NCBI GenBank assembly: GCA_030690305.1
Contig: JAUYHB010000027.1
Location: forward strand, 15,670 to 79,669
Direction of reading: 5' to 3'
Source of the DNA: a bacterium
GTDB taxonomy: Bacteria; Patescibacteriota; Minisyncoccia; Phycocordibacterales; JAGLPS01
DNA: 64,000 bases
Shown here: in pieces, positions 13,657 to 38,350 of the stretch
How the letters are laid out: each line of letters starts with the position of its first letter
How positions within the stretch are numbered: the stretch's first letter is position 1
The notes under the pieces: generated by a model
What the model was told of the DNA's origin: nothing
Database searches by the model: none
Seen by the model: only the letters and a program-made list of their open reading frames with translations
Program-made: the position numbers and the translations under genes

Positions 13657-14487
13657 ATGAACGGAAACATTTATGTTATCAAGGCGCACGGGGACAAAGA
13701 ACTTTTTGCGCCCGAAAAACTTATACGCTCCTTAAAAAACTCCGGTGCTTCCGACGAGATGGCTTCCGATGTTTTGAAGTCCATCGAAAGCTTGCTTCAG
13801 GATGGGATGAAGACTTCCGATATTTACCGTCTCGCGTTTTCTTTGTTGCATAAGAAAGAAAGGGTGGCGGCGATGCGATATTCTCTTAAACGGGCGCTTA
13901 TGGACCTTGGGCCGAGCGGCTTTCCGTTCGAAAATTTTCTTTCAGAGGTTTTCAAGCGGAAAGGTTTTACCGTTGAGCGCGACATGATTGTTTCGGGGAA
14001 TTGCGTTGACCATGAGGTCGACCTTGTGATTTCTTCTCCGGAAAAAAGAATCATGGTTGAGGTTAAATTTCATAATGAAATCGGCATCAAGTCGGATGTG
14101 AAAGTCGCACTGTACGTTGCCGCCCGGTTTGAAGATATTTTTATAAAACAAGGAGGGCCGACCGACACGAAAAAAGAAGAGGGCTGGCTTATCACCAACA
14201 CAAAATTTACCCAGGCGGCTATCGAGTACGGAATGTGCAAAGGACTGACAATGATAGGGTGGAATTATCCTTCCAAAGGAAATCTCCAACAACTCATTGA
14301 AGAAAGCGGCCTCCATCCTTTGACGTGTCTTTCAACATTGACCACGTCGCAAAAGCAAACCCTCCTCTCCGAAGGTGTCGTGCTGTGCCGCGATGTTGTT
14401 GACCACCCGCGCCTTCCGTCTCTTGGCGTAAATGATGCCAAACTTAAGAAAGTTATTGACGAGGCGCGTTCTCTCTGCGGTATTTAA
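13657..14487 (+). CDS. ATP-cone domain protein fused to an Mrr-like (restriction-endonuclease-fold) domain
   Basis: N-terminal NrdR-like ATP-cone (IYVIKAHGDKELFAPEKLIRSL). Central ...FENFLSEVFKRKGFTVERDMIVSGNCVDHEVDLVI...EVKFHN resembles the Mrr catalytic D...(D/E)xK core. Confidence 0.6.
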   Translation: MNGNIYVIKAHGDKELFAPEKLIRSLKNSGASDEMASDVLKSIESLLQDGMKTSDIYRLAFSLLHKKERVAAMRYSLKRALMDLGPSGFPFENFLSEVFKRKGFTVERDMIVSGNCVDHEVDLVISSPEKRIMVEVKFHNEIGIKSDVKVALYVAARFEDIFIKQGGPTDTKKEEGWLITNTKFTQAAIEYGMCKGLTMIGWNYPSKGNLQQLIEESGLHPLTCLSTLTTSQKQTLLSEGVVLCRDVVDHPRLPSLGVNDAKLKKVIDEARSLCGI

Positions 14488-14492
14488 AACAT

Positions 14493-15311
14493 ATGTCTCC
14501 ACTGCCCTACAACGCCAAAAGAAAAAAAATTACTTTCAACCCCGAAAGCAATGCCGCTCACCGGCTTAGCCGCTCAAAAGTGGATTTGTTTTTTGAATGT
14601 CCGCGTTGTTTTTATCTGAATGAAATTCTAGGTATCGGGCGTCCGTCCATGCCCCCGTTTACGTTAAATGTCGCGGTTGACCATCTGTTGAAAAAGGAAT
14701 TTGATGTCCATAGGACGGAAGGGACCGCGCACCCGCTTATGAAAGAGTATGGAATCGATGCTGTCCCTTTCAACGACCAAAAAATCGAAGAATGGCGAAA
14801 TAATTTCAAAGGAGTAACCCGTTTCCACAAGGAAACCAACCTGACTTTTTTTGGAGCCGTTGACGATGTGTGGGTTAATCCGAAAGGGGAATTGATTGTC
14901 GTTGATTATAAAGCGACAAGTAAAGCGGGTAAAATTGATCTTTCCGGCGGGTGGGGCCCGCAATACAAACGGCAGATTGAATTTTATCAATGGCTTTTGC
15001 GCGGCAATGACTACCGGGTTTCCAATACGGGATATTTTGTTTACGCAAACGGCATTAAAGACAGAGCGGTGTTTGATAAAAAACTTGAATTTGAAGTGGA
15101 AATCATTTCTCATACCGGAGACGATTCGTGGATTGAAAAAACCGTAACGGATGTCAAATCGTGCCTTCTGCAAAAAATGTTGCCGGAAGCGGGAGAACTG
15201 TGTGAACACTGTTCATATCGCGAATCCGCCGGAAAAGCCATTCGGGGCTTGTACGGGCAAAAAATCGATGAAAAAAAAGACGATGACACAAAATCGGGCC
15301 GCCTCTTTTAG
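14493..15311 (+). CDS. PD-(D/E)XK nuclease superfamily protein, Cas4/RecB-like with a Cys cluster
   Basis: N-terminal CPRC and C-terminal CEHC cysteines (Fe-S-like, as in Cas4/AddB nuclease domains); VVDYKAT provides the D-x-K motif. Confidence 0.6.
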   Translation: MSPLPYNAKRKKITFNPESNAAHRLSRSKVDLFFECPRCFYLNEILGIGRPSMPPFTLNVAVDHLLKKEFDVHRTEGTAHPLMKEYGIDAVPFNDQKIEEWRNNFKGVTRFHKETNLTFFGAVDDVWVNPKGELIVVDYKATSKAGKIDLSGGWGPQYKRQIEFYQWLLRGNDYRVSNTGYFVYANGIKDRAVFDKKLEFEVEIISHTGDDSWIEKTVTDVKSCLLQKMLPEAGELCEHCSYRESAGKAIRGLYGQKIDEKKDDDTKSGRLF

Positions 15312-16514: not shown

Positions 16515-18260
16515 ATGCAATCGGAAGAAATACGTTCTCGTTTCCTAAAATTTTTTGAAAAGAAAGGACATGCCATTGTTCCTTCTTCTTCGCTTGTGCC
16601 GCAAAACGACCCTTCGGTTCTTTTTACAACCGCCGGAATGCAGCAATTCAAGCCCTACTATACCGCTCCCGAAAATGCCATCAAAGATTTTGGGAATAAA
16701 AATATTGTGACTGTCCAGAAATGCGTGCGCACCGGGGATATTGATGAAGTGGGAGACGAAACACACCTTACCTTTTTTGAAATGCTCGGTAATTTTTCTT
16801 TCGGCGGATATTGGAAAAAAGAAGCGATTGAATATGCTCATGAATTTATCACCAAAGAACTCGGGCTTTCGATAGATTACGTTTCCGTGTTCAAGGACGA
16901 AGTGAGTGGCATACCTGCCGACGAGGAATCCCGTGCTATTTGGGCTGGAATCGACCCTAATCTTGTAATAAAAGAGCACAATCGTCAGGATAATTTCTGG
17001 GGTCCGACGGGGGACGAGGGTCCTTGCGGTCCGACAACTGAAATTTATGTTAATGGCGTAGAAATTTGGAACATTGTATTCAACGAATACTACAAAACCC
17101 GAGAAGGGAAATATGAACCGCTTGCGGTAAAGGGAATTGATACAGGCATGGGGCTTGAACGTCTTGCGGTACAAGTACAGAAAAAAAATGATGTGTACGA
17201 GACTGATTTGTTTGAACCAATTATTTCTTTAATAAAGCAAAAGAGAGAACAGATTCCCGCTGTTTCTATATTAAAAGGAGATCCTAAAAATGATAGTCGT
17301 GAAGAAAGAATAAATCGTATTTTCACTGATCATTTAAAAACAAGCACCTTTTTAATTTCTGATGGTGTTTTACCAAGTAATAAAGACAAGGGCTATATTT
17401 TGAGAAGACTAATGCGTAGGACTATGGGTGAGACACTTTTAGCCCCATTTCACAAAGAAGCTTTTCAGAAAATTGAAAAAATATATAAAAAAACAAACTA
17501 CAAAATTAATCTTCAGATTGTCATTGAGGTCTATGAAAAAGAGTTGGAAAATTTTAAATCTAATCTGGAGAGGGGATTGAAAGAAATAAATAAGAATATC
17601 AACGCTGGTGGGATTGTTACAGGTCAAGAAGCTTTTAATTATTTCTCCACTTACGGGATACCGAAGGAAATGTTTTTAGATTCAATAAGCCACTTAATTT
17701 ATAGTAAAGATGAGAATTTTGAGCAGGACTATGAATTTTCTTATAAAAGGCACCAAGAACTCTCTCGCACATCGTCTGCGGGAATGTTTAAGGGTGGTCT
17801 TGCTAATCACAACGAGAAAACAATCAAGCACCACACCGCACATCACTTGCTCCTGGCTGCGCTTCAGGAAGTGCTGGGCAAAAGTGTAAAACAGAAGGGA
17901 AGTAATATCACCGAGGAACGTCTGCGTATGGATTTTTCTTTCGAAAGGAAAATGACGGATGAGGAAAAAAAGAAAGTTGAGGAAATCGTAAATAATTATA
18001 TTTCCCAAAATCTTTCCGTGATACGGAAAGAAATGCCCCTTGCAGAGGCGGAGAAAATCGGCGCAGAAATGGAGTTTGGCGCAAAATATCCCGATATTGT
18101 TTCCGTTTATCTTATTGAAGATAAACAAGGCAATCCCATCTCTAAAGAATTTTGCGGCGGACCTCATGTTGAGAACACCGGTATCTTAGGAAAATTTAAA
18201 ATTCTCAAAGAAGAGGCGGTTTCCGCCGGGGTACGCAGGATTAAAGCCGTACTTGAGTAA
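16515..18260 (+). CDS. alaS: alanyl-tRNA synthetase, short form (catalytic, tRNA-recognition and editing domains; no C-Ala domain)
   Basis: N-terminal FTTAGMQQFKP class-II core, DTGMGLERLAV, editing-domain HxxxH (HTAHHLL) and CGGPHV. Only 581 aa. Confidence 0.85.
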   Translation: MQSEEIRSRFLKFFEKKGHAIVPSSSLVPQNDPSVLFTTAGMQQFKPYYTAPENAIKDFGNKNIVTVQKCVRTGDIDEVGDETHLTFFEMLGNFSFGGYWKKEAIEYAHEFITKELGLSIDYVSVFKDEVSGIPADEESRAIWAGIDPNLVIKEHNRQDNFWGPTGDEGPCGPTTEIYVNGVEIWNIVFNEYYKTREGKYEPLAVKGIDTGMGLERLAVQVQKKNDVYETDLFEPIISLIKQKREQIPAVSILKGDPKNDSREERINRIFTDHLKTSTFLISDGVLPSNKDKGYILRRLMRRTMGETLLAPFHKEAFQKIEKIYKKTNYKINLQIVIEVYEKELENFKSNLERGLKEINKNINAGGIVTGQEAFNYFSTYGIPKEMFLDSISHLIYSKDENFEQDYEFSYKRHQELSRTSSAGMFKGGLANHNEKTIKHHTAHHLLLAALQEVLGKSVKQKGSNITEERLRMDFSFERKMTDEEKKKVEEIVNNYISQNLSVIRKEMPLAEAEKIGAEMEFGAKYPDIVSVYLIEDKQGNPISKEFCGGPHVENTGILGKFKILKEEAVSAGVRRIKAVLE

Positions 18261-18379: not shown

Positions 18380-21300
18380 ATGAACGAAAAGTCCACAATA
18401 CAATTTGTCATCTCGGGAGTATTCGTTTTTGCCATGCTTCTCCCAGGCATCGCTTTTTTGGTAGAGCACAAAGATGCTTATGCGGCAGAAAATCCTCTAT
18501 CCCAATTCGTAGAAAATATCGGACAAAGCGGCAAAAGCACGCTTTCTTTTGTTTCCGAAGTGGCGAGAAGCGGAGCGCAACAAGGGGTAAAACAACTCCA
18601 GGAATCCCGCCGAAGAATTTTTGTGCTTTTTGAAAAAAGTCGGGTCCATCTCCGGAATACCTTTGGGGAATTGTATGTCGGTGCTTTCATGCGTGCGCAA
18701 CCCGATTCCAAGGGAAACTTTTTTCTTCGTGCGAATGTTTTCGAAGCAATAGGGGAAATGTTCAATAATCTTTCTATTGGTTTATATAAAGGAGTCAATG
18801 AAATTTTTTCCAGTTTCTTCTCAAGTGAAGAATCATATATCCAGAATAAGGCACCCATAGTACAAGAACCTGTTTCTCCCGCGCCGGTCGCGGAAGAAAA
18901 GGCTGACGAGTCCGCCGCACAAAAAAGCGATTCTTTTCAGGAAACAGCGGAGCAATCCCCGACAGTTGTATATGTTCAGGCTCCACCCAAAACACAACCT
19001 CCTCAAACTGTTACAACTATCATCAAGGAAGTCCCTGCTCCCGACTCTGTTTCCAAAAGCGAATTGGAATCCCGTCTTTCCGCCCTCGCGGCGACGTTGT
19101 TGAGTAAAATTTCTTCAGCCCAAAATACTGCCGTTCAATATTTCTATCCCTCGGTTCCGCAACCTGTTCAACTTCTGAACAAAATAGACAACCTTTCCGG
19201 TGTTACTATCACTTCTTCCTCAATTATCGGTGGAACATGGAGTGATGTTGATATTACAAGCGGTTCAGGGGGTTTCGGAACACTTTCAAGCGATACATTT
19301 TCTAGTGGCGCTGTCACTGTAAGTGGCAGTCTCACATTAAGTACAACAACATCGGGATGTCTTGAGGCAACAAGTAGCGGAGTGGTATGGATTACCGGTA
19401 CCGCTTGCGGAACAGGAAGCGGAGGCGGTTCTTCCTTCGGTCAAGCCTTTGAAATCACCACTAACATTTTCTCCCAAGCTTCTCTCAAGGCAACCTCAAC
19501 AGCCGTTCACAACCTGGTCATTGATGGCACCGGTACATCCACTTTCTCCGGAGGCCTTGAAGTCTGGAGACAAATTGCTGCTCCGTACTTCCAGGCAACA
19601 TCGACCACTATCGCATCACAATTCCCATACGCTTCAACGACGGCACTTACTATCTCGGGTACTGCCTACATTAGTTCTCTCACAGGCCCTCTTCAAGCGC
19701 TGAGTGGTACCGTTTCTGCAACCACAACACTTTCTGCCGCATACGGAGGAACGGGACTCTCGACACTCCCTTCATACGGACAAATTCTCTTAGGTAATGC
19801 GTCAAGCGGATATACCTTAAATGCCACCTCCTCACTTGGCTTTATCGGTGCTGACTACAGAGATTGGAATTTGACCACGAACATCTTTAACCAATCCGTT
19901 CTCGCGCCAACGACAACACAAAACATTCTTGTCTCCGGCACCGGTACCTCCACCTTTGCAGGAAGCATTGAAGCCTGGAGACAAATCGCCGCTCCGTACT
20001 TTCATGCGACTTCTTCTACGGCGACGAGTACGTTTGCGGGGGGACTTACGGTAGATGGTTCAACATTCGTTGTTGACTATTCATCAGGGAATGTGGGCAT
20101 CGGGACGGCAACTACAACTGCCCTTTTCACAGTGTATGGAACAAATCCGATAGCCCACATAAGAAGTTCCAGTCTTAACGATAATGCCAACTCTCCAGCG
20201 ATTGAGCTTACTGAATCTACAGGAACCGAGGACTATGGTTTTCAAATCAAATACCTTGCACAATCAAATCGTTTTGAGATAAATACGGACAGCAGTGGTT
20301 CTAATGGCTTCGGACAGAACGCAGTGTCCATAATGAGAGAGACTCATAATTTTGGTCTTGGTTCCACATCTCCCTACGCCAAATTCTCTGTTGCGGGGAA
20401 AGACACCACTACCACCTTGATAGGAGCGGATGCCGTCTCTGGATTTTCCGGGAACCTTCTTGAACTTAAACTGGCCTCTACTACTGTCTTTATGGTGGAA
20501 GGAGATGGAGATGTACAATTTTTAGATGCTAAAGGAATTTACTTTAATTCTGCGGCCAATGATGCAAATTGGGGTATCGGAAGAAACATTGTGGAAGACA
20601 CCGGTGGGTTTCTCACAAGTAATAACCTTCAGCTAAAAATATACGGCAACTCTACTCCACAGACACAAGGTTTACAGGTAGTGAACCACAACAATGTTGT
20701 GTTGATGGAAATATCGGGGAGTGATGGAAAAACCGTATTTAACGGAAGTGGAAATATAGGTATTGGTACAACTTCACCTTATGCAGTGCTTTCAATACAC
20801 GCAACCTCAACTTCAAATTATGAAAATACCCTTTTTGCTATTGCTTCCTCTACGGCCTCTTTCGCCACCACTACCCACTTTGTTGTTACCGCTGGGGGCA
20901 ACGTCGGCATCAGTACAACAAGTCCGTACGCGAAGTTATCTGTCATCGGGCAAACTGTCGCTGCATACTTTACTGCCACCACAACCTCGGACAACACTTT
21001 CCCAAATCTTCTTTCAACAAATTCAACAACGACAAACGCCACCACCACAACCGCCTCATTCACCACTGCTTCCACAACTAATTTAATTGTCAGCAGTGCG
21101 GGCGGTTCTGCAGGCTGCGCACAATTCAGTATCACAGGCCTTATTTCAAATTCAGGTTCAGCCTGTGGCACGGGCGGAGGATTGTCTTCTTATGACGCTT
21201 GGACACATCCGATAGTGGGGCAATCGGCCACAACTTCTTCGATTGTCGCAGCAGGATTCTTTACAAACTCTAACTCAAACTTCAACGCATCAGTCGGCAT

Positions 21301-22714
21301 CGCATCTTCAACTCCGTGGGCTAAACTCTCCGTCGGTACTCACAACCTCGCCATCGCCACTCCTTCTTTCGTTATTGCTTCTTCTTCAACGGGAGTGGCA
21401 ACGACGACACAATTTATTGTCAAGAATGGTCAGGTAGGCATTGGAGCAACGGCTCCAAATACCGAGAAACTCTATGCCTTTGACAACACAGACTCAACAT
21501 TTGGTGTCATCAGTGCACGCACTGAATCCACTAACTCAGACAATATTGCCATCAATGCTACGGTCGCAGGAGCCGGGACTAATAACATCGCTCTGTATGG
21601 ATGGGCCTCTGATGCAGTAACCAATAACTGGGGTTTGTATATCGAAAGTGGTAACGCACACATTGAAGGCCTTCTTGAAATTGCAACGTTTGCCGCATCT
21701 GATGATAATTCCCGTTGGGTGTGTATCGATGCTTCAGGCGCGTCTACTTTGCAGGCGGGTGTTAACGCTTCCAGTGGCGATTGCGACACTTCCTCTGCCC
21801 GATTTAAACACAATATAGAAACACTTGAAGTCTCGGCTTTGTCCTTGGTTTCCGGGTGGCGACCTGTTTCATTTATATACAATGAGGATCTGGAAGAAAC
21901 AATTATGTGGGGTTTTATCGCGGAGGAAATGGCTTCCAGCAGTCCACAATTGGCATTTTACGATAGTTTAGGTCGTCCCAGAGGACTTCAAAAAAATGCC
22001 ATACTTTCCGTATTGGCCAAAGCGATTCAGGAGCTTAATCTCAACCTGGATAATATTGCCTCTACGACTGCCACATCTACACCGGAATCACAATCATTTG
22101 CAACGAGCTTCTTTAATAATCTCTTCAAGCGATTCACAACATGGTTTGCGGACGCGGCGAATGGCATTGGGGATGTGTTTGCCCGTTCATTCCGCGCAAA
22201 AGAAGAAATTTGTGTGGATGACCAGTGTCTCACGAAAGAGGACGTTCGTTCCCTGCTTACGCTTGCTAACGGCAGCACTGCTTTTGTTGGCGGAGGTAAC
22301 ATTGGCGACGAGGGTGGAAATGTCTCCGGTGACATTTCAGGAAATGGTGGAAACCAAGAGCAAGAAGCCTCCGATACCACTCCTCCTATCATTCTCATCC
22401 AAGGCAATAATCCTGCGGAAATAGCGATAAACACAAGTTACGCCGACCTCGGGGCGTTGATTACTGACGACCAGGACGAAAATCCAACGACGTATACCTA
22501 CCTTAATGGAGCAACCACTACAAGCATTTCAATCGACACATCGGTTGCCGGCACACACACGGTTACATATACCGCGACCGATGACGCTGGAAATACCACG
22601 ACCGTAGAGAGAATTGTAAACATTATGGAAGTGCAGAAAACTGACGATACATCTCCGAACAATAACGCCACGACGACGCAGGAAACCGCAACGTCAACAG
22701 AAAACGTAATATAA
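18380..22714 (+). CDS. giant secreted/surface fibre-like protein (1444 aa) with internal repeats, an internal peptidase-S74 intramolecular-chaperone domain and a C-terminal Ig-like (DUF5011-type) domain
   Basis: N-terminal TM/signal anchor; Ser/Thr/Gly-rich. Repeated NxGIGTxSPYAKLSV-like units (6 or more) and a duplicated GTGTSTF(A/S)G..E.WRQIAAPYF.ATS block. SSARFKHNIE...WGFIAEE...LQKNAILSVLAKAIQEL matches the SDxRxKxNI autoproteolytic chaperone motif of phage tail-fibre/endosialidase C-termini. ...TTPPIILIQGNNPAEIAINTSYADLGALITDD...GTHTVTYTATDDAGNTTTVERIVNI matches the DUF5011 Ig-like fold. Confidence 0.8.
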   Translation: MNEKSTIQFVISGVFVFAMLLPGIAFLVEHKDAYAAENPLSQFVENIGQSGKSTLSFVSEVARSGAQQGVKQLQESRRRIFVLFEKSRVHLRNTFGELYVGAFMRAQPDSKGNFFLRANVFEAIGEMFNNLSIGLYKGVNEIFSSFFSSEESYIQNKAPIVQEPVSPAPVAEEKADESAAQKSDSFQETAEQSPTVVYVQAPPKTQPPQTVTTIIKEVPAPDSVSKSELESRLSALAATLLSKISSAQNTAVQYFYPSVPQPVQLLNKIDNLSGVTITSSSIIGGTWSDVDITSGSGGFGTLSSDTFSSGAVTVSGSLTLSTTTSGCLEATSSGVVWITGTACGTGSGGGSSFGQAFEITTNIFSQASLKATSTAVHNLVIDGTGTSTFSGGLEVWRQIAAPYFQATSTTIASQFPYASTTALTISGTAYISSLTGPLQALSGTVSATTTLSAAYGGTGLSTLPSYGQILLGNASSGYTLNATSSLGFIGADYRDWNLTTNIFNQSVLAPTTTQNILVSGTGTSTFAGSIEAWRQIAAPYFHATSSTATSTFAGGLTVDGSTFVVDYSSGNVGIGTATTTALFTVYGTNPIAHIRSSSLNDNANSPAIELTESTGTEDYGFQIKYLAQSNRFEINTDSSGSNGFGQNAVSIMRETHNFGLGSTSPYAKFSVAGKDTTTTLIGADAVSGFSGNLLELKLASTTVFMVEGDGDVQFLDAKGIYFNSAANDANWGIGRNIVEDTGGFLTSNNLQLKIYGNSTPQTQGLQVVNHNNVVLMEISGSDGKTVFNGSGNIGIGTTSPYAVLSIHATSTSNYENTLFAIASSTASFATTTHFVVTAGGNVGISTTSPYAKLSVIGQTVAAYFTATTTSDNTFPNLLSTNSTTTNATTTTASFTTASTTNLIVSSAGGSAGCAQFSITGLISNSGSACGTGGGLSSYDAWTHPIVGQSATTSSIVAAGFFTNSNSNFNASVGIASSTPWAKLSVGTHNLAIATPSFVIASSSTGVATTTQFIVKNGQVGIGATAPNTEKLYAFDNTDSTFGVISARTESTNSDNIAINATVAGAGTNNIALYGWASDAVTNNWGLYIESGNAHIEGLLEIATFAASDDNSRWVCIDASGASTLQAGVNASSGDCDTSSARFKHNIETLEVSALSLVSGWRPVSFIYNEDLEETIMWGFIAEEMASSSPQLAFYDSLGRPRGLQKNAILSVLAKAIQELNLNLDNIASTTATSTPESQSFATSFFNNLFKRFTTWFADAANGIGDVFARSFRAKEEICVDDQCLTKEDVRSLLTLANGSTAFVGGGNIGDEGGNVSGDISGNGGNQEQEASDTTPPIILIQGNNPAEIAINTSYADLGALITDDQDENPTTYTYLNGATTTSISIDTSVAGTHTVTYTATDDAGNTTTVERIVNIMEVQKTDDTSPNNNATTTQETATSTENVI

Positions 22715-22754: not shown

Positions 22755-23951
22755 ATGAGTTTCCTTAAGAAAGAATCAAAATCAGAACCCTCCATCATTT
22801 TTGATATCGGTTCCGCCTCCATAAACGCTTCAATAGTTATCTTTTCGGAAACACACCTTCCCCATGTCGTGTATTCTTTAAGGCTTGGTTTGCCGATTAC
22901 CGAACACCCCGATTCCGACAGAATGCTCACTTCTATAGTGAGCCTGATAAAGGATGCTCTCGCGCAACTTGAAAAAGAGGGAATTCCTCTTTTGCACTCC
23001 TATCATCTTTCGGGAAAAGCAATTCGCCATATCCATTGCGTTCTTGCCTCACCTTGGTACGTTTCGCAGACAAAAACTCTTGAAGTGGAACGCAAGTCGC
23101 CGATTGTGATTTCCGAAGATTTTATTTCCGAAATTACCGGAAAGGAAGAAAAGGCGTTCGAAGACTCTATCGCGCATTCCGCATATGCCGACACATTCGA
23201 CAAAAATGTTGTTCTGGCCGAACAAAAAGTAATCCATATCAAACTCAATGGGTATGAAACGAAAAATCCTTATGGCAAAAAATCTTCTCACATTTCTTTT
23301 TCATTTTTCTCAAGTCTTGTGTCAAAAAAGGTAACGGAAAAAATAACCGAAGTTATTTCAAGCTCTTTTGATAAGGACAAAATCAAATTCCACAGTTTTT
23401 GCCTCGCATCGTTCGGCGCCTTTACCGAACTCTTTTCCGAAGTAAAAGATTTTTTGATGATGGATATTACGGGGGAAGTAACCGATGTTTCGCTCGTGCG
23501 AGGGGGAATCATACTTGAAACCGCATCGTTTCCCTCTGGCAGAAATTTTCTCGCGCGACGCATTATGAAGAAAATGAATACGAATGCCGAAGTCGCTCTT
23601 TCGTATCTTTCTTTGTACGCGAACAAAACCGCCGAACCCGCTTTGGCCGTAAAAGTAGAGCAAGTCATAAAAGAAGTCGAAGAGGAGTGGGTGATTTATC
23701 TCAATGAAGTGGCGAAGGACCTTGCCGGTCAAGGCAACGTACTTCCGAGGAAGGTATTTCTCACCGTTGATGACGACGTCGCTCCGGTTTTTCTTTCATA
23801 TCTTAAAAGAAGCGCGTATCCTCTGGACACGTTACCTCTCAACGAAAAACAAACCTCTCATATTGTCGCGATGGAAAAAGGAATGAAAGCCGATCCGTTT
23901 ATCGCGCTTGAAGCCGTATATTTAAACAAAATATTTCATAACAAAAATTAA
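22755..23951 (+). CDS. actin-fold ATPase, FtsA/PilM-like
   Basis: Phosphate-1 motif IIFDIGSASINASIV and phosphate-2-like LMMDITGEVTDVSLV; about 400 aa; followed 15 nt later by a single-pass membrane protein gene. Confidence 0.6.
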   Translation: MSFLKKESKSEPSIIFDIGSASINASIVIFSETHLPHVVYSLRLGLPITEHPDSDRMLTSIVSLIKDALAQLEKEGIPLLHSYHLSGKAIRHIHCVLASPWYVSQTKTLEVERKSPIVISEDFISEITGKEEKAFEDSIAHSAYADTFDKNVVLAEQKVIHIKLNGYETKNPYGKKSSHISFSFFSSLVSKKVTEKITEVISSSFDKDKIKFHSFCLASFGAFTELFSEVKDFLMMDITGEVTDVSLVRGGIILETASFPSGRNFLARRIMKKMNTNAEVALSYLSLYANKTAEPALAVKVEQVIKEVEEEWVIYLNEVAKDLAGQGNVLPRKVFLTVDDDVAPVFLSYLKRSAYPLDTLPLNEKQTSHIVAMEKGMKADPFIALEAVYLNKIFHNKN

Positions 23952-23966
23952 AGGTATAATAGACGT

Positions 23967-25262
23967 ATGGCAAGAAATATCGTTCAAGATGTATTACCTC
24001 CCGATAGGCGCTCCATAAGGGATATTCCGCTACCGAACCGCCGAAAAGAAGAAAGAAAGGCAGAGCCTCCCAAGCAATCCTCCTCACCTTCATCACCGGA
24101 AAAAAACGAAAAGAAAACCCATGTCGCTATTTGGGTTATCGCGGCGCTGTCGGTTATCGTGCTCCTTTTTGCGGTGGCTTCCTTATTTGTCGGTGCAACC
24201 GTTAAAGTTACCCCCCAAACTCAGGAGGTTTTATTCAATAACGCCATCATTCTCTCCGCTTCCCGAGATGCTCTCAATACAAATGCGGCCGCATTTGAAA
24301 TCATGACCCTGAACAAAGAAAAGGGGAAAGAGGTGCCGGCAACCAAAGAAGTGGACGCCCGAGTGAAGGCGTCGGGAACCATTGTAATTTACAACAATCA
24401 CAGCGCGGAAAGTCAGAGGCTGGTTAAAAATACCCGTTTTGAGACTCCCGAAGGTCTTGTATACCGCGTTGCCGAATCGGTGGTTGTGCCCGGAAAAACA
24501 ACCAAAGACGGGAAAACAACGCCCGGTAGTGCGGAATCCGTCGTGTATGCCGATGAACCCGGAGAAAAATACAATATAGGCCTCGCGGATTTTACGATAC
24601 CCGGTTTCAAAGGCTCTCCTCAATACAGCAATTTTTATGCGCGTTCGAAAACACCGATGACGGGAGGGTTTGTCGGTAAAATTAAAGAAGTGGAACAGGG
24701 AACGCTCGCGGAAACAAAACAGGAAATTCAAGGAGCACTCATGTCCGAACTTCTCACCGAAGCGAAAGACCAAATCCCTGAAAATTTCATTCTTTACGAC
24801 GGTGGAGTTTTTTATTCTTTTGAAGATTTACCACAGGGGGCGGGGAGCGCGACTTCCGCCGAAATCCGCCAGAAAGGCACACTATATGGAGTTATGTTTA
24901 AACGGGGCGATTTCATAAATTACCTCGCGCAAAGCATGGTGCCCGAATTCGGTTCCGAAGCGGATTTTCTGGGACTTGATGACCTTGTTCTTTCCATCAA
25001 AGAAAAGAACAATACCAATCCCGAAAGAATGACCGAATTTAAATTTACTTTTGAGGGAAATGGCGTTTTCGTGGCTTTATTTGAAGCTGAAAAGCTGAAA
25101 GTCGACCTTTCCGGAAGAGAACGAAGCGTGGCAAAGGAAATTTTTGGCACCTACTCCTCCATAGCCGAAGCCACGGTAACGGTGATGCCTTTCTGGAGAA
25201 GTATGCTTCCCGAAGACCCCAATAAAATAAAGGTTGAAATCGTTTTACCCGGACGTCGATGA
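23967..25262 (+). CDS. single-pass membrane protein with a basic cytoplasmic N-terminus and a large extracytoplasmic domain (431 aa)
   Basis: Lys/Arg/Pro-rich N-terminus, one TM helix (HVAIWVIAALSVIVLLFAVASLFVGA), then an about 350-aa domain; topology resembles FtsQ/PilN-type partners of actin-like ATPases. Confidence 0.55.
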   Translation: MARNIVQDVLPPDRRSIRDIPLPNRRKEERKAEPPKQSSSPSSPEKNEKKTHVAIWVIAALSVIVLLFAVASLFVGATVKVTPQTQEVLFNNAIILSASRDALNTNAAAFEIMTLNKEKGKEVPATKEVDARVKASGTIVIYNNHSAESQRLVKNTRFETPEGLVYRVAESVVVPGKTTKDGKTTPGSAESVVYADEPGEKYNIGLADFTIPGFKGSPQYSNFYARSKTPMTGGFVGKIKEVEQGTLAETKQEIQGALMSELLTEAKDQIPENFILYDGGVFYSFEDLPQGAGSATSAEIRQKGTLYGVMFKRGDFINYLAQSMVPEFGSEADFLGLDDLVLSIKEKNNTNPERMTEFKFTFEGNGVFVALFEAEKLKVDLSGRERSVAKEIFGTYSSIAEATVTVMPFWRSMLPEDPNKIKVEIVLPGRR

Positions 25263-34084: not shown

Positions 34085-34789
34085 ATGTTGGACACAAGAT
34101 TCTGGAAAAAATATTTCGAAGTATACGACCTACTCAATATCCTCGAGCCGTATCAGACACTGCTTCAAGATATCCGTGAACCCCTTGGCGAGATAGAAGG
34201 AATGAAAATTCTTGATGCGGGAGCTGGAACTGGTAACTTGGCGATTTTGCTTTCCCGAGAGGGTGCCGACGTTGTCGCTCTTGATTTTTCACAGGAAGGA
34301 CTTGGAAAATATCTTGAGAAATTTCCCTCGGGAAAAACTGTGCTTCATGACCTCACAGAACCGCTTCCGTTCGATTCCGAAACCTTTGACACTATTGTCT
34401 CGAATAATACGATTTACACTTTACCTAAAGAAACTCGTCCGTATGCATTTAAAGAGTTTTACCGAATTTTGAAACGAGGTGGAAAAATTGTCGTTTCAAA
34501 CGTGCATACTGGCTTTAAACCGATAAAAATTTATTTTGCCCACATTGGATGGAGTTTAAAAAACAAAGGTTTGGGGAAAACCATGGGGGAAGTGCTAAGT
34601 CTCTTAGTGCCGACAATGAAGATTTTTTACTATAATTCTCTTATCATAAAAGAGCATAAAGGTAATAATTTTGCTTTTATAGGCGAAAATGAGCAGAAAG
34701 AACTCCTCGAAAGCACGTTTTTCAAAGAAATTTCTCAAAACAAGTCCACGTATGCCAATCAGGCAATCCTTAATCACGCGATAAAATAA
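34085..34789 (+). CDS. class I SAM-dependent methyltransferase
   Basis: ILDAGAGTGNLAILL motif I and downstream motif II/III spacing. Confidence 0.75.
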   Translation: MLDTRFWKKYFEVYDLLNILEPYQTLLQDIREPLGEIEGMKILDAGAGTGNLAILLSREGADVVALDFSQEGLGKYLEKFPSGKTVLHDLTEPLPFDSETFDTIVSNNTIYTLPKETRPYAFKEFYRILKRGGKIVVSNVHTGFKPIKIYFAHIGWSLKNKGLGKTMGEVLSLLVPTMKIFYYNSLIIKEHKGNNFAFIGENEQKELLESTFFKEISQNKSTYANQAILNHAIK

Positions 34790-34843
34790 GCCATTCTAAA
34801 ATGGCTTGTTTTCTAATACAATTTACCTAATTCTCCAAGAGCT

Positions 34844-35596
34844 ATGAAGATTTACAAAAAACTTAAATTAGCAATAAAAGAAGGAGAAAAAGAAGTTATC
34901 TTTGGTGAAACTGAAACTGTAGATGAACTAAAACAAGTTTATGAATTCCGTTTTAAAGAATATTCGAGAAAAGGGTATATCATTCCCTCCCAGTTTCCCG
35001 ACAATCAAGAAAGTGACGAGTATGATAAATCTAGAAAATGTAAGTATTTTGTAGCAATTGTAGATAATAAAATTATTGGAACAGTTCGTCTTATCATTAC
35101 TGACCCTCTTCCTACGGAGAGTGTTTATCATTTTATCGAACCCGTTGAAATGCTAAAAATTCCTCGTGACAGAAGAGGGGAGCTGGGACGTCTGATTATT
35201 GTTCCCTTAGACCGTGAGAAGAAAATCTATCTTCCAAGAGGTCTCGTTCTACTTATGATGTTGGATATGTTGGCTGATTATGGTACACGAAATAATATTC
35301 AGGGAGGGTATGCATTTATTAAAAAAAGTCTTGAGCAAAAAATGAAATTACTCCGTTTTCCTTTTAATCCTATTAAAAAATTTGAATATATTGATTTAGC
35401 GACCAACACTATTCGTAATTATTTTCATCAACCTAATGACCCTGCCTTACCAATTTTTTATTTGACTGTGGATTTTAAAAAATATATTTCAAAAATTATT
35501 TATAATCCGTGGTTGTTCAAAAAAGAAAAAGATAACACCCTAATTCTTAGAAAAAACCTATATTCTTTTTTCCTCAAGGTTCTAGGGATAATTTAA
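34844..35596 (+). CDS. GNAT-fold N-acyltransferase of the autoinducer-synthase-like (LuxI/FeeM N-acyl amino acid synthase) type
   Basis: ...VYEFRFKEYSRKGYIIPSQFPDNQESDEYDKSRKCKYFVAIVDNKIIGTVRLII... and ...ELGRLIIVP... resemble the R-x-x-VF/E-x-D-x-D and GxxRL/ExSRL blocks of LuxI/FeeM-type acyl synthases. AT-rich gene. Confidence 0.55.
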   Translation: MKIYKKLKLAIKEGEKEVIFGETETVDELKQVYEFRFKEYSRKGYIIPSQFPDNQESDEYDKSRKCKYFVAIVDNKIIGTVRLIITDPLPTESVYHFIEPVEMLKIPRDRRGELGRLIIVPLDREKKIYLPRGLVLLMMLDMLADYGTRNNIQGGYAFIKKSLEQKMKLLRFPFNPIKKFEYIDLATNTIRNYFHQPNDPALPIFYLTVDFKKYISKIIYNPWLFKKEKDNTLILRKNLYSFFLKVLGII

Positions 35597-35623
35597 GTTA
35601 TAATGAAAGGAATAATAATTTAA

Positions 35624-37186: not shown

Positions 37187-37202
37187 CCTGAAGTGGTTTT
37201 TC

Positions 37203-37231
37203 TTGACAAAGCAAGAAAAAGATTATATTAT
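37203..37231 (+). promoter_or_regulatory. near-consensus sigma-70 promoter for the rSAM-peptide operon, followed by a palindrome
   Basis: TTGACA - 17 nt - TATTAT; downstream GTCTTTG-ACA-AAAGAC inverted repeat (37245-37260) and AAAGGAGG RBS before ATG 37295. Confidence 0.6.
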
Positions 37232-37294
37232 ATGAGGAAGTTGGTCTTTGACAAAAGACTTTTGAATCTCTAGACAGAAAGGAGGATAGATGAC

Positions 37295-38350
37295 ATGAGT
37301 TCATTCCAAGTGAAAATTGTTGGTGATTTCTGTAACATCCGTTGTACATATTGCAGAAACCGTGACTTTGATCAAGATACGAATGTTTTGATGTCTGTGG
37401 CCAATCTAGAAAAACTTTTTGTTTTTCTAGATTCGTTACCACAAGCACGAATTCGTGTGAATTGGCACGGGGGCGAGCCATTGCTGGCAGGAAAAAAGTT
37501 TTTCCATCATATCTTGAGACTGGAAAACCAATATAAGCAAAAAATATGGATGAATGCTGTTCAGACAAATGCCATGTTGATTGATGATGATTGGGCTAAA
37601 CTTTTCCATGATAACCACTTTGATATCGGAGTAAGTATTGATGGAAGTGAACAAACGCATAACAGTGACAGAATAAATGTTGCTGGACGTGGAACATATA
37701 AGGAAGCGATGCGTGGTGTGGAAGCTCTTCGTCATAATAGCATTCATCCCGGCGTTATCTGTACTGTTACTAAAAAGACTGTCAGATACGCAAAAGAGAT
37801 GCTTCTTGATCTAGTGGATGCTGGGTTTAAAAGCATTGCTTTCAATGCTTTCTATAACACAGCGTCAGATTGTGATGGTGATACGTACGGACTAACAGAC
37901 ACAGAATGGCTGGCGTTTCTCATAGAAATATTTGAAACGTGGCTCGTACTTAATGATCCCACAATTCGTGTTCGCGAGTTGGATAGCATGCTTGCATGGA
38001 CCAAATCAAAAAGTGCTAATTCTTGCGTGTATAAAGGTACCTGTTATCAGTGGTTCGCTATCCATTACACTGGCGACATTTATCCTTGTGAAAGGCTGGG
38101 TAAATCTACCCATTTTGGAAGTATTGACTCCCTGAGAACTTTTCAGGACTTAGTGAATACTCCTGTTTTCCTTAATTGGAAAGAGTCAATTGGCCAACTT
38201 CCTCAAAGGTGTCGCACTTGCAGTTTGCAGTCATTGTGTCATAATGGTTGCGTTAGCCATCGGAAAGCAGATGAAGAGGGGGTGCCTCTTTACAGGTATT
38301 GTGAAAGTAGGCTCGGTTTCTATGATTACATCAAGGAAAGACTTAAATGA
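37295..38350 (+). CDS. radical SAM enzyme with a C-terminal SPASM domain (peptide-maturase type)
   Basis: CNIRCTYC (CX3CX2C) radical-SAM cluster motif. C-terminal auxiliary-cluster cysteines CVYKGTC...YPCE...CRTCSLQSLCHNGC are typical of SPASM (anSME/PqqE/MftC/AlbA-like) enzymes. Confidence 0.85.
   Translation: MSSFQVKIVGDFCNIRCTYCRNRDFDQDTNVLMSVANLEKLFVFLDSLPQARIRVNWHGGEPLLAGKKFFHHILRLENQYKQKIWMNAVQTNAMLIDDDWAKLFHDNHFDIGVSIDGSEQTHNSDRINVAGRGTYKEAMRGVEALRHNSIHPGVICTVTKKTVRYAKEMLLDLVDAGFKSIAFNAFYNTASDCDGDTYGLTDTEWLAFLIEIFETWLVLNDPTIRVRELDSMLAWTKSKSANSCVYKGTCYQWFAIHYTGDIYPCERLGKSTHFGSIDSLRTFQDLVNTPVFLNWKESIGQLPQRCRTCSLQSLCHNGCVSHRKADEEGVPLYRYCESRLGFYDYIKERLK

What the first reader, a model, noticed from the sequence alone, without database searches (positions are those of the whole stretch)
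18380..22714. Giant surface protein with an internal tail-fibre-type autoproteolytic chaperone (S74) domain followed by an Ig-like domain
The 1444-aa protein is repeat-rich (NxGIGTxSPYAKLSV units, duplicated WRQIAAPYF blocks). It carries the SDxRxKxNI-type motif (SSARFKHNIE... WGFIAEE... LQKNAILSVLAKAIQEL) of peptidase S74 intramolecular chaperones, which normally sit at the extreme C-terminus of phage tail fibres or endosialidases and cleave themselves off after trimerisation. Here the domain is internal, at about aa 1100-1215. About 230 further residues follow, including a DUF5011-type Ig-like domain (...GTHTVTYTATDDAGNTTTVERIVNI). Either the released fragment is itself functional, or this is a cellular, non-phage co-option of a phage fibre-maturation module for a surface fibre.
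Basis: partly seen in the sequence, partly recalled or inferred. Interest (0 to 1): 0.6.

Follow-up and report, generated by a model that had tools for sequence, protein, structure and literature searches.

The report
Self-cleaving cell-surface fibre of a Patescibacterium
This chromosomal gene of an ultra-small (Patescibacteria) bacterium encodes a long surface fibre that carries a phage-type self-cleaving folding domain followed by a conserved extra tail, a layout that is the rule in this group of bacteria and has not been described in the papers I could search.

Summary
Window 18380-22714 (+) is one 1444-aa ORF. It has an N-terminal hydrophobic anchor and a repeat-rich Ser/Thr/Gly/Ala shaft. 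Peptidase_S74 matches at aa 1138-1189 (30.3 bits, cut-off 22) with the Ser1138/Lys1143 dyad. A Bact_surface_Ig-like (ex-DUF5011) domain lies at aa 1339-1415 (38 bits, cut-off 27).

It is not a prophage gene. It sits between alaS and the infA-rpoA ribosomal cluster, and has no PHROG hit. The identical protein is in NCBI from a Patescibacteria MAG.

The internal position of S74 is a family trait. In Patescibacteria-labelled genomes, 60 of 60 S74 ORFs have at least 85 residues after the S74 helix. Eight of 13 ORFs from other phyla end 9-36 residues after it. Ser and Lys are conserved in 73/73 and 73/74 alignable S74 domains.

The post-S74 helix plus two-Cys module is better conserved (45-65% identity) than S74 (35-49%) or the shaft (23-35%). 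In other homologues the same module follows a Peptidase_G2-like chaperone instead.

Best reading: an N-anchored trimeric adhesive fibre that cuts itself at Thr1137|Ser1138. Cellular S74 fibres (Bdellovibrio MAT) and internal S74 (MYRF) are already known, so this is a new variant of a known kind. The role of the tail is unresolved.

The parts
18380..22714 (+). Whole gene: 1444-aa precursor (150 kDa, pI 4.5) of the surface fibre
   Evidence: ORF listing. The identical protein is NCBI MDP2705447.1/MDZ4240548.1, 'DUF5011 domain-containing protein', Patescibacteria group bacterium. There are 278 homologues with E<=1e-3.
18401..18463 (+). aa 8-28: the only hydrophobic segment. It is an N-terminal signal anchor or a Sec signal peptide (possible A33-Y-A35|A36 cleavage site)
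   Evidence: Kyte-Doolittle 19-mer maximum is 2.52 at aa 10, and no other segment exceeds 1.6. 41 of 49 N-complete S74 homologues have such a segment. In 16 of them it lies behind a cytoplasmic N-domain, which indicates a true membrane anchor. The cleavage site is read from the sequence and is an inference.
18491..19189 (+). aa 38-270: N-proximal region (Phe-rich stretches, then a Pro/Gln-rich linker) of unknown fold
   Evidence: No Pfam, NCBIfam or PDB match. It is poorly conserved among homologues.
19190..21790 (+). aa 271-1137: Ser/Thr/Gly/Ala-rich repeat shaft, which would be the mature fibre after cleavage
   Evidence: Composition S 12.5%, T 12.5%, A 10.2%, G 9.3%. Internal repeats. Identity to homologues is 23-35%. 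No PDB sequence match apart from compositional noise.
19448..19672 (+). aa 357-431: first copy of the duplicated ~70-aa block containing WRQIAAPYF
   Evidence: Aligns with aa 496-564 at 49-58% identity, E 5e-20 to 2e-19.
19865..20071 (+). aa 496-564: second copy of the WRQIAAPYF block
20351..21334 (+). Span holding four strict 'xG(I/L)(G/S/A)(S/T)(S/T)xP(Y/W)A(K/V)(L/F)S(V/I)' units at aa 658-671, 793-806, 842-855 and 972-985
   Evidence: Regex matches. The profile region holding the family copy of this motif gives weak matches to Bdellovibrio MAT fibre structures 8ol4, 8ojn, 8oml and 8ond (E 0.2-0.9). A related capping-loop motif is described for MAT and MyRF in PMC10769870.
21722..21784 (+). 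aa 1115-1135: loop closed by two cysteines, immediately before the cleavage site. It would be the extreme tip of the mature fibre
   Evidence: The eight cysteines fall into four close pairs: 327/343, 913/929, 1115/1135 and 1278/1283. Cys1135 is nearly invariant and the loop between the two cysteines is variable. The tip role is an inference.
21791..22072 (+). aa 1138-1231: Peptidase S74 intramolecular chaperone/autoprotease. It holds nucleophile Ser1138 (nt 21791-21793), Lys1143 (nt 21806-21808), GFIAEE at aa 1178-1183, and a C-terminal helix at aa 1205-1230
   Evidence: Pfam. Profile against PDB: 8jov E 2e-15, 6f45 2e-10, MyRF 7dc3 3.6e-9, T5 8hqz 3.7e-7. AF2 pLDDT is 78-94. Foldseek gives MyRF ICA E 3e-3 and 99 BFVD hits with E<=1e-3, mostly phage S74 proteins. 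Ser is conserved 73/73 and Lys 73/74.
22073..22279 (+). aa 1232-1300: post-chaperone module. It consists of an amphipathic Phe-rich helix (aa 1235-1259), then a beta-hairpin with Cys1278/Cys1283 and a helix (aa 1276-1297; 'EICVDDQCLTKEDVRSLL')
   Evidence: It is the best conserved part of the protein after the Ig domain of the closest relative (45-65% identity). Cys1278 and Cys1283 are invariant. Secondary structure comes from the AF2 model, with pLDDT 48-57 for the helix and 62-80 for the hairpin plus helix. It also follows G2-like domains in 18 homologues.
22280..22387 (+). aa 1301-1336: Gly/Asn/Glu-rich flexible linker
   Evidence: Sequence composition. pLDDT is below 50.
22388..22627 (+). 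aa 1337-1416: Ig-like domain (PF16403, formerly DUF5011)
   Evidence: Pfam. pLDDT is above 90. Foldseek top hit is 2kpn, a bacterial Ig-like domain (E 3e-4). phmmer against 2kpn gives E 3e-3. Identity to P0002 is 80%.
22628..22711 (+). aa 1417-1444: Thr/Asn-rich low-complexity C-terminal end, with no sorting signal
   Evidence: No LPxTG-like motif and no C-terminal hydrophobic segment.

Best explanation
The gene encodes the precursor of a trimeric cell-surface fibre of a Patescibacteria (Paceibacteria-type) cell, most likely an adhesin for contact with a host or partner cell.

Proposed steps, with their status:
1. The chain is exported by Sec and held at the membrane by its N-terminal hydrophobic segment. 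This is inferred from hydropathy, from paired cysteines, and from paralogues with a cytoplasmic N-domain followed by a TM segment.
2. The C-terminal S74 domain of three chains associates through its helix (aa 1205-1230) and templates folding of the repeat shaft from the C-terminal end. This is inferred from what is established for S74/ICA domains.
3. Once the trimer has formed, the Ser1138/Lys1143 dyad cuts the Thr1137|Ser1138 bond. Presence and conservation of the dyad are shown here; cleavage itself is not.
4. A ~113-kDa mature fibre remains, whose tip is the Cys1115-Cys1135 loop. A 33-kDa C-terminal fragment is detached. That fragment holds S74, an amphipathic helix, a two-Cys hairpin-helix, a linker, the Ig-like domain and a Thr-rich end.

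The extra 213 residues are a conserved pro-tail specific to this bacterial group. My preferred reading (about 0.4 of the weight within this explanation) is that the tail acts during assembly: it extends or nucleates the trimer and keeps the three C-termini together and soluble at the cell surface until cleavage. A function for the released Ig-bearing trimer is not excluded.
For: Domain identity.
- Pfam S74 and Ig hits are above curated cut-offs.
- The family profile hits solved S74 structures: phage fibre 8jov E 2e-15, 6f45 2e-10, MyRF ICA 7dc3 3.6e-9, T5 pb1 8hqz 3.7e-7.
- The AF2 model is confident for S74 and Ig.
- Fold matches include MyRF ICA and 99 viral proteins, mostly S74.

Catalysis is retained. 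The S-x4-K spacing is the same as endoNF S911/K916 and MyRF S587/K592 (PMC8326128). Ser is conserved 73/73 and Lys 73/74 across the family.

Cellular, not phage.
- The flanks are alaS, infA-rpmJ-rpsM-rpsK-rpsD-rpoA-rplQ and grpE-dnaK-dnaJ.
- No PHROG hit.
- Homologues P0004, P0016 and P0009 also sit among housekeeping genes.

Surface location and N-terminal anchoring.
- There is a single N-terminal hydrophobic segment, and the eight cysteines fall into four close pairs.
- 41 of 49 complete homologues have an N-terminal hydrophobic segment. In 16 it follows a ~100-aa N-domain that includes HTH_17.

The tail is selected and tied to the chaperone.
- Region identities: helix plus Cys module 45-65%, S74 35-49%, shaft 23-35%.
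- 57 of 59 S74 homologues have at least 40 aa after the S74 helix, and the Ig domain is downstream of S74 in 22 of 22.
- In species-representative genomes, 60 of 60 Patescibacteria-labelled ORFs have at least 85 aa after S74, whereas 8 of 13 ORFs from other phyla have 9-36 aa.
- The same tail follows a Peptidase_G2-like domain in homologues without S74.

Precedent. Bdellovibrio MAT fibres end in S74. Bd3182 cleaves at S782, and cleavage is blocked by S782A (PMC10769870).
Against: - No experiment or proteomic data exist for this protein, so cleavage, trimerisation and surface display are all inferred.
- The shaft could not be modelled (pLDDT 32-50 for aa 1040-1112), and it has no significant match to any solved fibre. 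'Trimeric beta-helical fibre' therefore rests on the S74 association and on weak motif-level matches (E 0.2-0.9).
- The N-terminal segment might be a cleaved signal peptide, which would leave retention on the cell unexplained.
- A conserved Ig domain in a fragment that is thrown away is not what a pure 'disposable pro-domain' model predicts.
- The host-adhesion role is an analogy to MAT proteins and phage fibres. It was not tested.
Confidence: 0.6

Rival explanations
1. S74 serves here only as a permanent trimerisation knot and does not cleave, or cleaves without dissociating. The C-terminal Ig-like domain would then be the true distal adhesive tip of the fibre and stay attached.
For: Adhesive tips of bacterial fibres are usually C-terminal beta-sandwich domains, as in the non-S74 MAT proteins Bd2133 and Bd1334 (PMC10769870). 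The Ig domain is well conserved, up to 80% identity. It is always distal to S74 (22/22; also all Ig-bearing S74 proteins of the and one search sets). It is joined by a flexible linker.
Against: The Ser/Lys dyad is conserved in 73/73 and 73/74 domains, which is hard to explain without catalysis. In characterised S74/ICA domains cleavage follows trimerisation (PMC8326128; PMC10769870). 37 of 59 S74 homologues have no Ig domain at all, only low-complexity tails, so Ig cannot be the general tip.
Confidence: 0.15
2. The released C-terminal trimer (S74, helix, Cys module, Ig) is itself the functional product, for example a secreted glycan-binding or decoy factor. A variant of this idea is that the tail is a temporary tether to the membrane or cell wall, so that self-cleavage frees the fibre tip, in the way MYRF cleavage frees its N-terminal trimer from the membrane.
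For: The tail is more conserved than the shaft and the S74 core. The same tail is attached to two unrelated autoproteolytic chaperone types. It contains a strongly amphipathic Phe/Trp-rich helix (hydrophobic moment up to 1.7). One homologue (P0007) has a short hydrophobic stretch directly after S74. MYRF provides the precedent of an internal S74 followed by a membrane anchor.
Against: The window protein has no transmembrane segment after aa 28 and no known wall-sorting motif. Most tails in the family are low-complexity Ser/Thr/Pro/Glu sequence, which looks more like a spacer than an effector. The hydrophobic stretch of P0007 has only 14 core residues, by my own hand count. No direct evidence exists for any activity.
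Confidence: 0.2
3. It is a phage or prophage tail fibre gene, or a recent phage remnant, rather than a cellular gene.
For: S74 domains and the GIGTxSP-type motifs are typical of phage tail fibres.
Against: No PHROG family matches. No phage gene lies within 64 kb, and the flanks are aminoacyl-tRNA synthetases, ribosomal proteins and chaperones. GC content is the same as the surroundings, 0.46 against 0.44-0.46. There is an N-terminal export or anchor segment. Homologues lie in chromosomal contexts, and some contigs in the genome scan carry more than one S74 locus.
Confidence: 0.03

Closest known systems
Bdellovibrio bacteriovorus MAT (mosaic adhesive trimer) fibres, S74 subgroup, e.g. Bd3182 (Caulton et al. 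2024, PMC10769870)
   Same: Both are chromosomal, non-phage bacterial surface fibres of about 1000 aa or more. Both are exported through an N-terminal signal, have a repeat shaft with related Gly-x-x-Pro capping-type motifs, and carry an S74 chaperone/protease with an S-x4-K dyad. In both cases the organism lives on other bacteria. The family profile gives weak matches to MAT structures.
   Different: The paper describes 13 MATs as 'terminating in' S74, and Bd3182 (construct aa 632-922) cleaves at S782. Here 307 residues follow the Ser, including a conserved helix plus two-Cys module and an Ig domain. The conserved beta-rich N-terminal domain of MATs was not detected. The organism belongs to a different phylum.
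Phage tail-fibre / endosialidase C-terminal intramolecular chaperone domains (Peptidase S74: K1F endoNF, T5 pb1, 8jov fibre)
   Same: Same domain family, dyad and fold. The expected mechanism is also the same: trimerisation-dependent folding and self-cleavage.
   Different: In the phage example 8jov the family-profile match ends at residue 436 of 439. Here the equivalent point is aa ~1231 of 1444. The gene is cellular and has its own export or anchor segment.
MYRF (myelin regulatory factor) ICA domain
   Same: The S74/ICA domain is internal, with further functional sequence downstream. The Ser/Lys dyad, the C-terminal helix that forms the trimer core and the trimer-dependent cleavage are shared features (PMC8326128). 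The profile match to 7dc3 has E 3.6e-9 and Foldseek gives E 3e-3.
   Different: MYRF has a transmembrane helix after ICA and an Ndt80-type DNA-binding domain before it, both on the cytosolic side. Here there is no TM segment after S74, the upstream part is an extracellular fibre, and the membrane anchor is N-terminal.
Phage phi29 gp12 pre-neck appendage auto-chaperone (Peptidase_G2). This applies to paralogues elsewhere, not to the window protein
   Same: In 18 homologues the same helix plus two-Cys (with or without Ig) tail follows a domain that resembles Peptidase_G2. Four of 9 match PF11962, best E 2.3e-6. The top PDB profile hit is 3gqh, aligned from its residue 1 ('DFAEYFE').
   Different: The matches are weak: the single tested protein that matched scored 23.3 bits against a cut-off of 25, and the PDB E-value is 0.68. 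Catalytic residues were not examined. The window protein itself uses S74.

Membership tests
Peptidase S74 / intramolecular chaperone auto-processing (ICA, CIMCD) domain | Sequence match to the family profile above the curated threshold | tested here: met
   PF13884, 30.3 bits against a cut-off of 22, E 5.2e-7, aa 1138-1189. The family profile hits S74 structures 8jov, 6f45, 7dc3 and 8hqz with E 2e-15 to 4e-7.
Peptidase S74 / intramolecular chaperone auto-processing (ICA, CIMCD) domain | Catalytic Ser-Lys dyad with S-x4-K spacing at the start of the domain | tested here: met
   Ser1138 and Lys1143 are present. They are conserved 73/73 and 73/74 in homologues. Equivalence to endoNF S911/K916 and MyRF S587/K592 follows PMC8326128.
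Peptidase S74 / intramolecular chaperone auto-processing (ICA, CIMCD) domain | Fold: beta-rich core followed by a long C-terminal helix that forms the trimer core | tested here: met
   The AF2 model has pLDDT 78-94 with a helix at aa 1205-1230. Foldseek gives MyRF ICA 7dc3 with probability 1.00 and E 3e-3, and 99 BFVD hits with E<=1e-3, mostly S74 proteins. The trimer itself was not modelled.
Peptidase S74 / intramolecular chaperone auto-processing (ICA, CIMCD) domain | Position at the extreme C-terminus of the precursor (the usual phage arrangement) | tested here: not met
   213 residues follow the S74 helix. This is not a strict family criterion, because MYRF also breaks it.
Peptidase S74 / intramolecular chaperone auto-processing (ICA, CIMCD) domain | Autoproteolysis after trimerisation | not testable with these tools
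   This needs expression with S1138A and K1143A mutants, or proteomics.
Bdellovibrio-type MAT fibre family | Conserved beta-rich ~130-aa domain directly after the signal peptide | tested here: inconclusive
   aa 38-270 has no Pfam or PDB match. No MAT N-terminal domain sequence was available for direct comparison.
Bdellovibrio-type MAT fibre family | Trimeric beta-helical shaft with capping-loop motif V-G-G/N-pi-x-x-P-x-x-x-L | tested here: inconclusive
   A related motif occurs four times in strict form. The profile region holding the family copy of this motif matches MAT structures only weakly, E 0.2-0.9. The shaft model has low confidence.
Bdellovibrio-type MAT fibre family | S74 or an alternative adhesive domain at the C-terminal end | tested here: met
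   S74 is present, but with a further tail that is not described for MATs.
MYRF-type membrane-tethered ICA proteins | Transmembrane helix downstream of the ICA domain | tested here: not met
   No hydrophobic 19-mer exceeds 1.6 after aa 28.
Phage / prophage tail fibre | Located in a phage structural module and matching phage protein families | tested here: not met
   No PHROG hit. The neighbours are housekeeping genes.
Bact_surface_Ig-like (PF16403, ex-DUF5011) | Profile match above threshold and an Ig-like beta-sandwich fold | tested here: met
   38 bits against a cut-off of 27. pLDDT above 90. Foldseek top hit 2kpn, E 3e-4.

The most novel reading that the evidence does not exclude
Patescibacteria have evolved a lineage-specific 'post-chaperone' C-terminal module: an amphipathic helix, a two-Cys hairpin-helix and optionally Ig domains. 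It is fused downstream of two unrelated phage-derived autoproteolytic folding domains (S74 and G2-like) in a large family of giant surface proteins.

The module would define a previously undescribed maturation logic. Either it nucleates and holds the C-termini at the cell surface until trimerisation-triggered self-cleavage frees the fibre tip, which would be a bacterial counterpart of MYRF release. Or it yields a second, secreted trimeric product. These fibres would then be main host-contact organelles of episymbiotic ultra-small bacteria.
Probability: 0.25. Interest if true: 0.7.

Novelty: new variant of a known kind. Interest (0 to 1): 0.5.

Why it matters
How ultra-small episymbiotic bacteria (Patescibacteria/CPR) recognise and hold on to their hosts is largely unknown. 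The abstract of PMC11623550, listed, says so explicitly. This gene belongs to a large family of phage-fibre-like surface proteins, and some contigs in the genome scan carry more than one such locus. These proteins are plausible host-contact fibres, parallel to the MAT fibres that Bdellovibrio uses on its prey.

The family also offers a natural experiment on intramolecular chaperones. The same conserved C-terminal tail is attached behind two different self-cleaving folding domains. Tail-deletion constructs could show directly what, beyond the classical chaperone, is needed to assemble a long trimeric fibre on a cell surface.

For annotation, the current label 'DUF5011 domain-containing protein' hides the more informative S74 fibre nature of the protein.

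Tried and rejected
- **Prophage origin: rejected.** There is no PHROG hit, the flanks are housekeeping genes and GC content is not unusual.
- **Gene-fusion or frameshift artefact creating the tail: rejected.** The identical protein occurs in two assemblies, and 60 of 60 Patescibacteria-labelled relatives have a tail.
- **Conserved operon partners: none found.** The two downstream genes (398 aa and 431 aa) have no homologues next to P0004, P0016 or P0009. They have no informative family hits either: PilM at E 1.2, and a GlxA barrel match at 28 bits.
- **Sequence search of the shaft (aa 270-1137) and the N-terminus against PDB.** It returned only compositional hits to antibody chains.
- **The search of protein representatives with alignment A1.** The profile retained the Ig columns, so tandem-Ig proteins dominated the list and the counts. 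The result cannot be used to size the S74 cassette family.
- **The search for homologous proteins with the 193-aa cassette and with the helix plus Cys alignment A5.** Both returned only short fragments.
- **The search for related loci with the 15-sequence alignment A3.** The 4-sequence alignment A4 worked.
- **Sortase-type anchoring.** There is no LPxTG-like motif, and the only TLxTC-pattern match in the six-frame translation of the window is an isolated one of unclear meaning.
- **Literature.** Five full-text searches found no paper linking S74 to Patescibacteria.
- **GC check of the three non-Patescibacteria-labelled full-cassette loci.** It could not decide between misbinning and gene transfer.

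Full report
**1.

Window 18380-22714 (+) is a single ATG-initiated ORF of 1444 aa. The protein is rich in Ser, Thr, Ala and Gly (12.5, 12.5, 10.2 and 9.3%).

It is internally repetitive:
- aa 357-431 and aa 496-564, each containing WRQIAAPYF, align at 49-58% identity (E 5e-20 to 2e-19).
- Units around aa 645-677, 780-812, 835-858 and 968-1026 are mutually similar.
- Two Cys-containing stretches, aa 324-353 and 910-938, also match each other.
- Four strict copies of the 'xGIGTTSPYAKLSV'-type motif start at aa 658, 793, 842 and 972.

Pfam places Peptidase_S74 at aa 1138-1189 (30.3 bits, cut-off 22, E 5.2e-7). It places Bact_surface_Ig-like (PF16403, the former DUF5011) at aa 1339-1415 (38 bits, cut-off 27, E 1.7e-9). 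NCBIfam adds nothing above threshold, and PHROGs gives no match. The domain runs from Ser1138 to the end of its helix at about aa 1231.

**2. Whose gene it is**

The identical protein is in NCBI as MDP2705447.1 / MDZ4240548.1, 'DUF5011 domain-containing protein', from Patescibacteria-group metagenome-assembled genomes.

Upstream lies a short alanyl-tRNA synthetase gene. Downstream lie two unknown genes, then infA-rpmJ-rpsM-rpsK-rpsD-rpoA-rplQ-rplM-rpsI and grpE-dnaK-dnaJ. The rest of the window encodes several aminoacyl-tRNA synthetases, a tRNA cluster and other housekeeping functions. GC content of the gene (0.46) equals that of its surroundings. This is a chromosomal cellular gene, not a prophage module. 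The S74, repeat and Cys-module motifs occur nowhere else in the window.

**3. Anatomy**

Hydropathy finds exactly one hydrophobic segment, aa 8-28, which is a signal anchor or a signal peptide. The eight cysteines fall into four close pairs (327/343, 913/929, 1115/1135, 1278/1283), as expected for an extracellular protein.

An AlphaFold2 model of aa 1040-1444, built on a 23-sequence family alignment, gives the following:

| Region (aa) | Feature | pLDDT |
|---|---|---|
| 1040-1112 | shaft just upstream of S74 | 32-50 |
| ~1139-1229 | S74 core, including the helix at 1205-1230 | 78-94 |
| 1235-1259 | second, amphipathic helix | 48-57 |
| 1276-1297 | beta-hairpin plus helix around Cys1278/Cys1283 | 62-80 |
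| 1301-1336 | Gly/Asn-rich linker | below 50 |
| 1337-1416 | Ig-like sandwich | above 90 |

The poor shaft model is what one would expect for a monomer prediction of an intertwined trimer.

Foldseek finds a bacterial Ig-like domain (2kpn, E 3e-4) for the Ig part and the MyRF ICA domain (7dc3, E 3e-3, probability 1.00) for the S74 part. Against predicted viral structures there are 99 hits at E<=1e-3, mostly phage 'intramolecular chaperone auto-processing' or S74 tail-fibre proteins.

A profile of the family alignment hits solved S74 structures by sequence:
- phage fibre 8jov, E 2e-15
- 6f45, E 2e-10
- MyRF 7dc3, E 3.6e-9
- T5 L-shaped fibre 8hqz, E 3.7e-7

In 8jov the match ends at residue 436 of 439. 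The corresponding point in this protein is about aa 1231 of 1444. The roughly 213 residues beyond it therefore lie outside the S74 domain as delimited by that phage example.

**4. Catalytic competence**

The motif S1138-S-A-R-F-K1143-H-N-I has the S-x4-K spacing of the dyad that cleaves endoNF (S911/K916) and MyRF (S587/K592) (PMC8326128). The same dyad cleaves Bdellovibrio Bd3182 at S782 (PMC10769870).

In the 23-sequence alignment, Ser1138, Lys1143, Gly1178, Ala1181, Cys1278 and Cys1283 are invariant. That is strong evidence that proteolysis, and not only folding assistance, is under selection. Cleavage itself was not and cannot be shown here.

**5. The internal position is a lineage trait**

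The full-length search returned 278 homologues. They are giant proteins (about 900-2500 aa) from Patescibacteria/Paceibacterota, Taylor-, Vogel- and Zambryskibacteria.

With HMMs cut from the family alignment:
- 59 of the 120 listed homologues have S74.
- 57 of those 59 have at least 40 residues after the S74 helix (median 201).
- 38 carry the helix plus two-Cys module.
- 22 carry Ig domains, and in all 22 the Ig lies downstream of S74.

An independent scan of one genome per species gave 80 loci. Extracting the ORFs gave the following:
- 60 of 60 Patescibacteria-labelled S74 ORFs with a stop codon have at least 85 residues after S74 (median 169).
- 8 of 13 ORFs from other phyla (Bacteroidota, Saprospira, Chlorobi, Spirochaetaceae, Pseudomonadota) end 9-36 residues after it, which is the phage-like arrangement.
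- Three non-Patescibacteria-labelled loci (L016, L040, L043) carry the full Patescibacteria-type tail. This reflects either gene transfer or misbinning, and a GC check was inconclusive.

A caveat applies. One of the two search patterns lies in the tail, so the scan is biased toward finding tail-bearing relatives. The other pattern (GFIAEE) lies in the S74 core and is not biased in this way.

**6. The tail is the conserved part**

I compared this protein region by region with seven homologues.

| Region | Identity |
|---|---|
| Shaft | 23-35% |
| S74 | 35-49% |
| Helix plus two-Cys module (aa 1232-1300) | 45-65% |
| Ig domain | 31-80% |

The consensus of the module is roughly 'SFAxSFFxNxFxRxxxWLADAxNGIxxxFA...(E)(I/L)CVDDxCxTKxxxxALL'.

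Eighteen homologues carry this module, often with Ig, but have no S74. Upstream they share a different domain: 'D(L/Y)AE(N/Y)..AG(D/E)IV..G(V/I)IST.PG..(R)PVAL(S/A)GRVP.KV..E.G.I.IGD..'. Four of nine such sequences match Pfam Peptidase_G2, 'IMC autoproteolytic cleavage domain' (best E 2.3e-6). The best PDB hit of their profile is the phi29 pre-neck appendage auto-chaperone 3gqh, aligned from its first residue ('DFAEYFE'), though at a weak E of 0.68.

So the same tail is placed behind two unrelated phage-type self-cleaving chaperones. This ties the tail functionally to the maturation step rather than to S74 as such.

**7. Topology in the family**

Of 49 N-terminally complete S74 homologues, 41 have an N-terminal hydrophobic segment. 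In 25 it is at the very start. In 16 it lies at aa 50-182, behind a cytoplasmic domain that in several cases is an HTH_17 helix-turn-helix. Those 16 must be N-in membrane anchors. This supports the picture of a fibre fixed to the cell by its N-terminus, with the chaperone end distal.

No sortase-type motif or C-terminal hydrophobic signal is present in the window protein.

**8. Mechanism proposed**

*Shown:* domain identities, the dyad and its conservation, the internal position, conservation of the tail, and the chromosomal context.

*Inferred from established S74/ICA biology* (PMC8326128; PMC10769870): three chains associate through the S74 C-terminal helices. This templates the upstream shaft, and only the trimer is cleavage-competent. 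The bond before Ser1138 is then cut.

*Inferred here:* the mature ~113-kDa fibre ends in the variable loop closed by Cys1115/Cys1135, which becomes exposed only after cleavage. The MAT paper notes that exposure by S74 proteolysis is needed for ligand binding in related S74 proteins. The detached 33-kDa fragment carries the tail.

For the tail I favour an assembly role, for two reasons. It is coupled to both chaperone types. Its best conserved elements, a helix and a small disulfide-capable hairpin-helix, are the sort of elements that register and nucleate trimers. The resemblance to the T4 fibritin foldon is an analogy from my own knowledge and was not tested.

The conserved Ig domain argues that the fragment may also act after release. 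The rival view, that S74 does not release and Ig is the true tip, is weakened by the invariant dyad and by the 37 of 59 S74 family members that have no Ig.

**9. Comparison with what is known, and novelty**

Cellular S74 fibres are published for Bdellovibrio: the MAT family, in which 13 of 21 members end in S74. An internal S74 followed by further sequence is known in MYRF. The protein itself is already deposited with automatic domain labels.

Five full-text searches found no description of any of the following:
- the presence of S74 fibres in Patescibacteria;
- the lineage-wide internal position of the domain;
- the conserved post-chaperone module;
- the occurrence of that module behind both S74 and G2-like domains.

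I therefore class the finding as a new variant of a known kind, of moderate interest (0.5). The more novel reading is a distinct maturation logic that defines the host-contact fibres of episymbiotic ultra-small bacteria. I give that reading about 0.25 probability.

Noticed in passing
Homologues P0063, P0090, P0092, P0097, P0086, P0119, P0025, P0005, P0017, P0093 (not in the window): Giant Patescibacteria proteins that carry the same helix plus two-Cys (with or without Ig) C-terminal tail, but behind a Peptidase_G2-like domain (phi29 gp12-type auto-chaperone) instead of S74. Four of 9 match PF11962 (best E 2.3e-6), and the top PDB profile hit is 3gqh, aligned from its residue 1 (E 0.68).
   Followed up: partly
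Homologues P0009, P0027, P0043, P0068, P0113 (also PF12728 in P0036, P0038, P0050, P0075, P0101, P0114): Many family members begin with a cytoplasmic HTH_17/MerR-like helix-turn-helix domain, followed by a transmembrane segment and then the extracellular fibre. A DNA-binding domain is thus fused to a giant surface fibre. This recalls membrane-tethered transcription factors, but with the opposite topology to MYRF.
   Followed up: partly
Homologues P0046, P0064, P0075, P0101, P0103: Two S74 domains in tandem, about 50 residues apart, each with a GLIAEE-type core. The second copy gives a weaker match (E 1e-4 to 4e-6).
   Followed up: no
window 34085-41285: A low-GC stretch (0.35-0.41, against about 0.45 elsewhere). 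It encodes two methyltransferases, a FeeM-like N-acyl amino acid synthase, a 7TM-receptor histidine kinase, a radical SAM/SPASM enzyme and unknown proteins. It could be a horizontally acquired small-molecule or peptide-modification cluster.
   Followed up: partly
window 16515-18260: The alanyl-tRNA synthetase is only 581 aa. The catalytic and tRNA_SAD domains are present, and the tRNA_SAD match ends at aa 576, so there is little sequence beyond it.
   Followed up: no
window 22755-25262: Two genes directly downstream of the fibre gene, separated from it by a 40-bp gap, with no terminator-like site before 25263. One is a 398-aa protein with no family hit (PilM-like only at E 1.2). The other is a 431-aa protein that appears to have an N-terminal membrane segment (by eye) and matches the GlxA beta-barrel domain. 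Neither is conserved next to homologues of the fibre gene.
   Followed up: partly
window 1192-1852: A cluster of five tRNA genes: Val-CAC, Pro-CGG, Ala-CGC, Pro-GGG and Ala-GGC.
   Followed up: no
window 57295-58683: A TrwB/VirD4-type type IV secretion coupling protein (PF10412, E 6e-13). A bioRxiv preprint (10.1101/2025.01.22.634366, listed) describes a Patescibacteria type IV secretion system.
   Followed up: no
window 13657-15311: Adjacent genes for an ATP-cone plus Mrr-type restriction endonuclease-like protein and a PD-(D/E)XK/Cas4-like nuclease.
   Followed up: no
L016 (Deltaproteobacteria GWA2_54_12), L040 (Blastocatellia), L043 (Pseudolabrys): Three loci labelled as non-Patescibacteria carry the complete Patescibacteria-type S74, helix plus Cys and Ig cassette. 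This is either horizontal transfer or misbinned contigs. GC content (0.52-0.57) does not settle it.
   Followed up: partly
L002 2973-15977 (contig JAXLZT010000001.1, around P0004): In this Paceibacterota genome the S74 fibre gene sits in a run of genes for proteins with N-terminal hydrophobic leaders: an HTH-containing protein, two paralogous ~225-255-aa proteins, a fibronectin-III protein and a Gly_rich_2 protein. This may be a surface-structure gene cluster.
   Followed up: no
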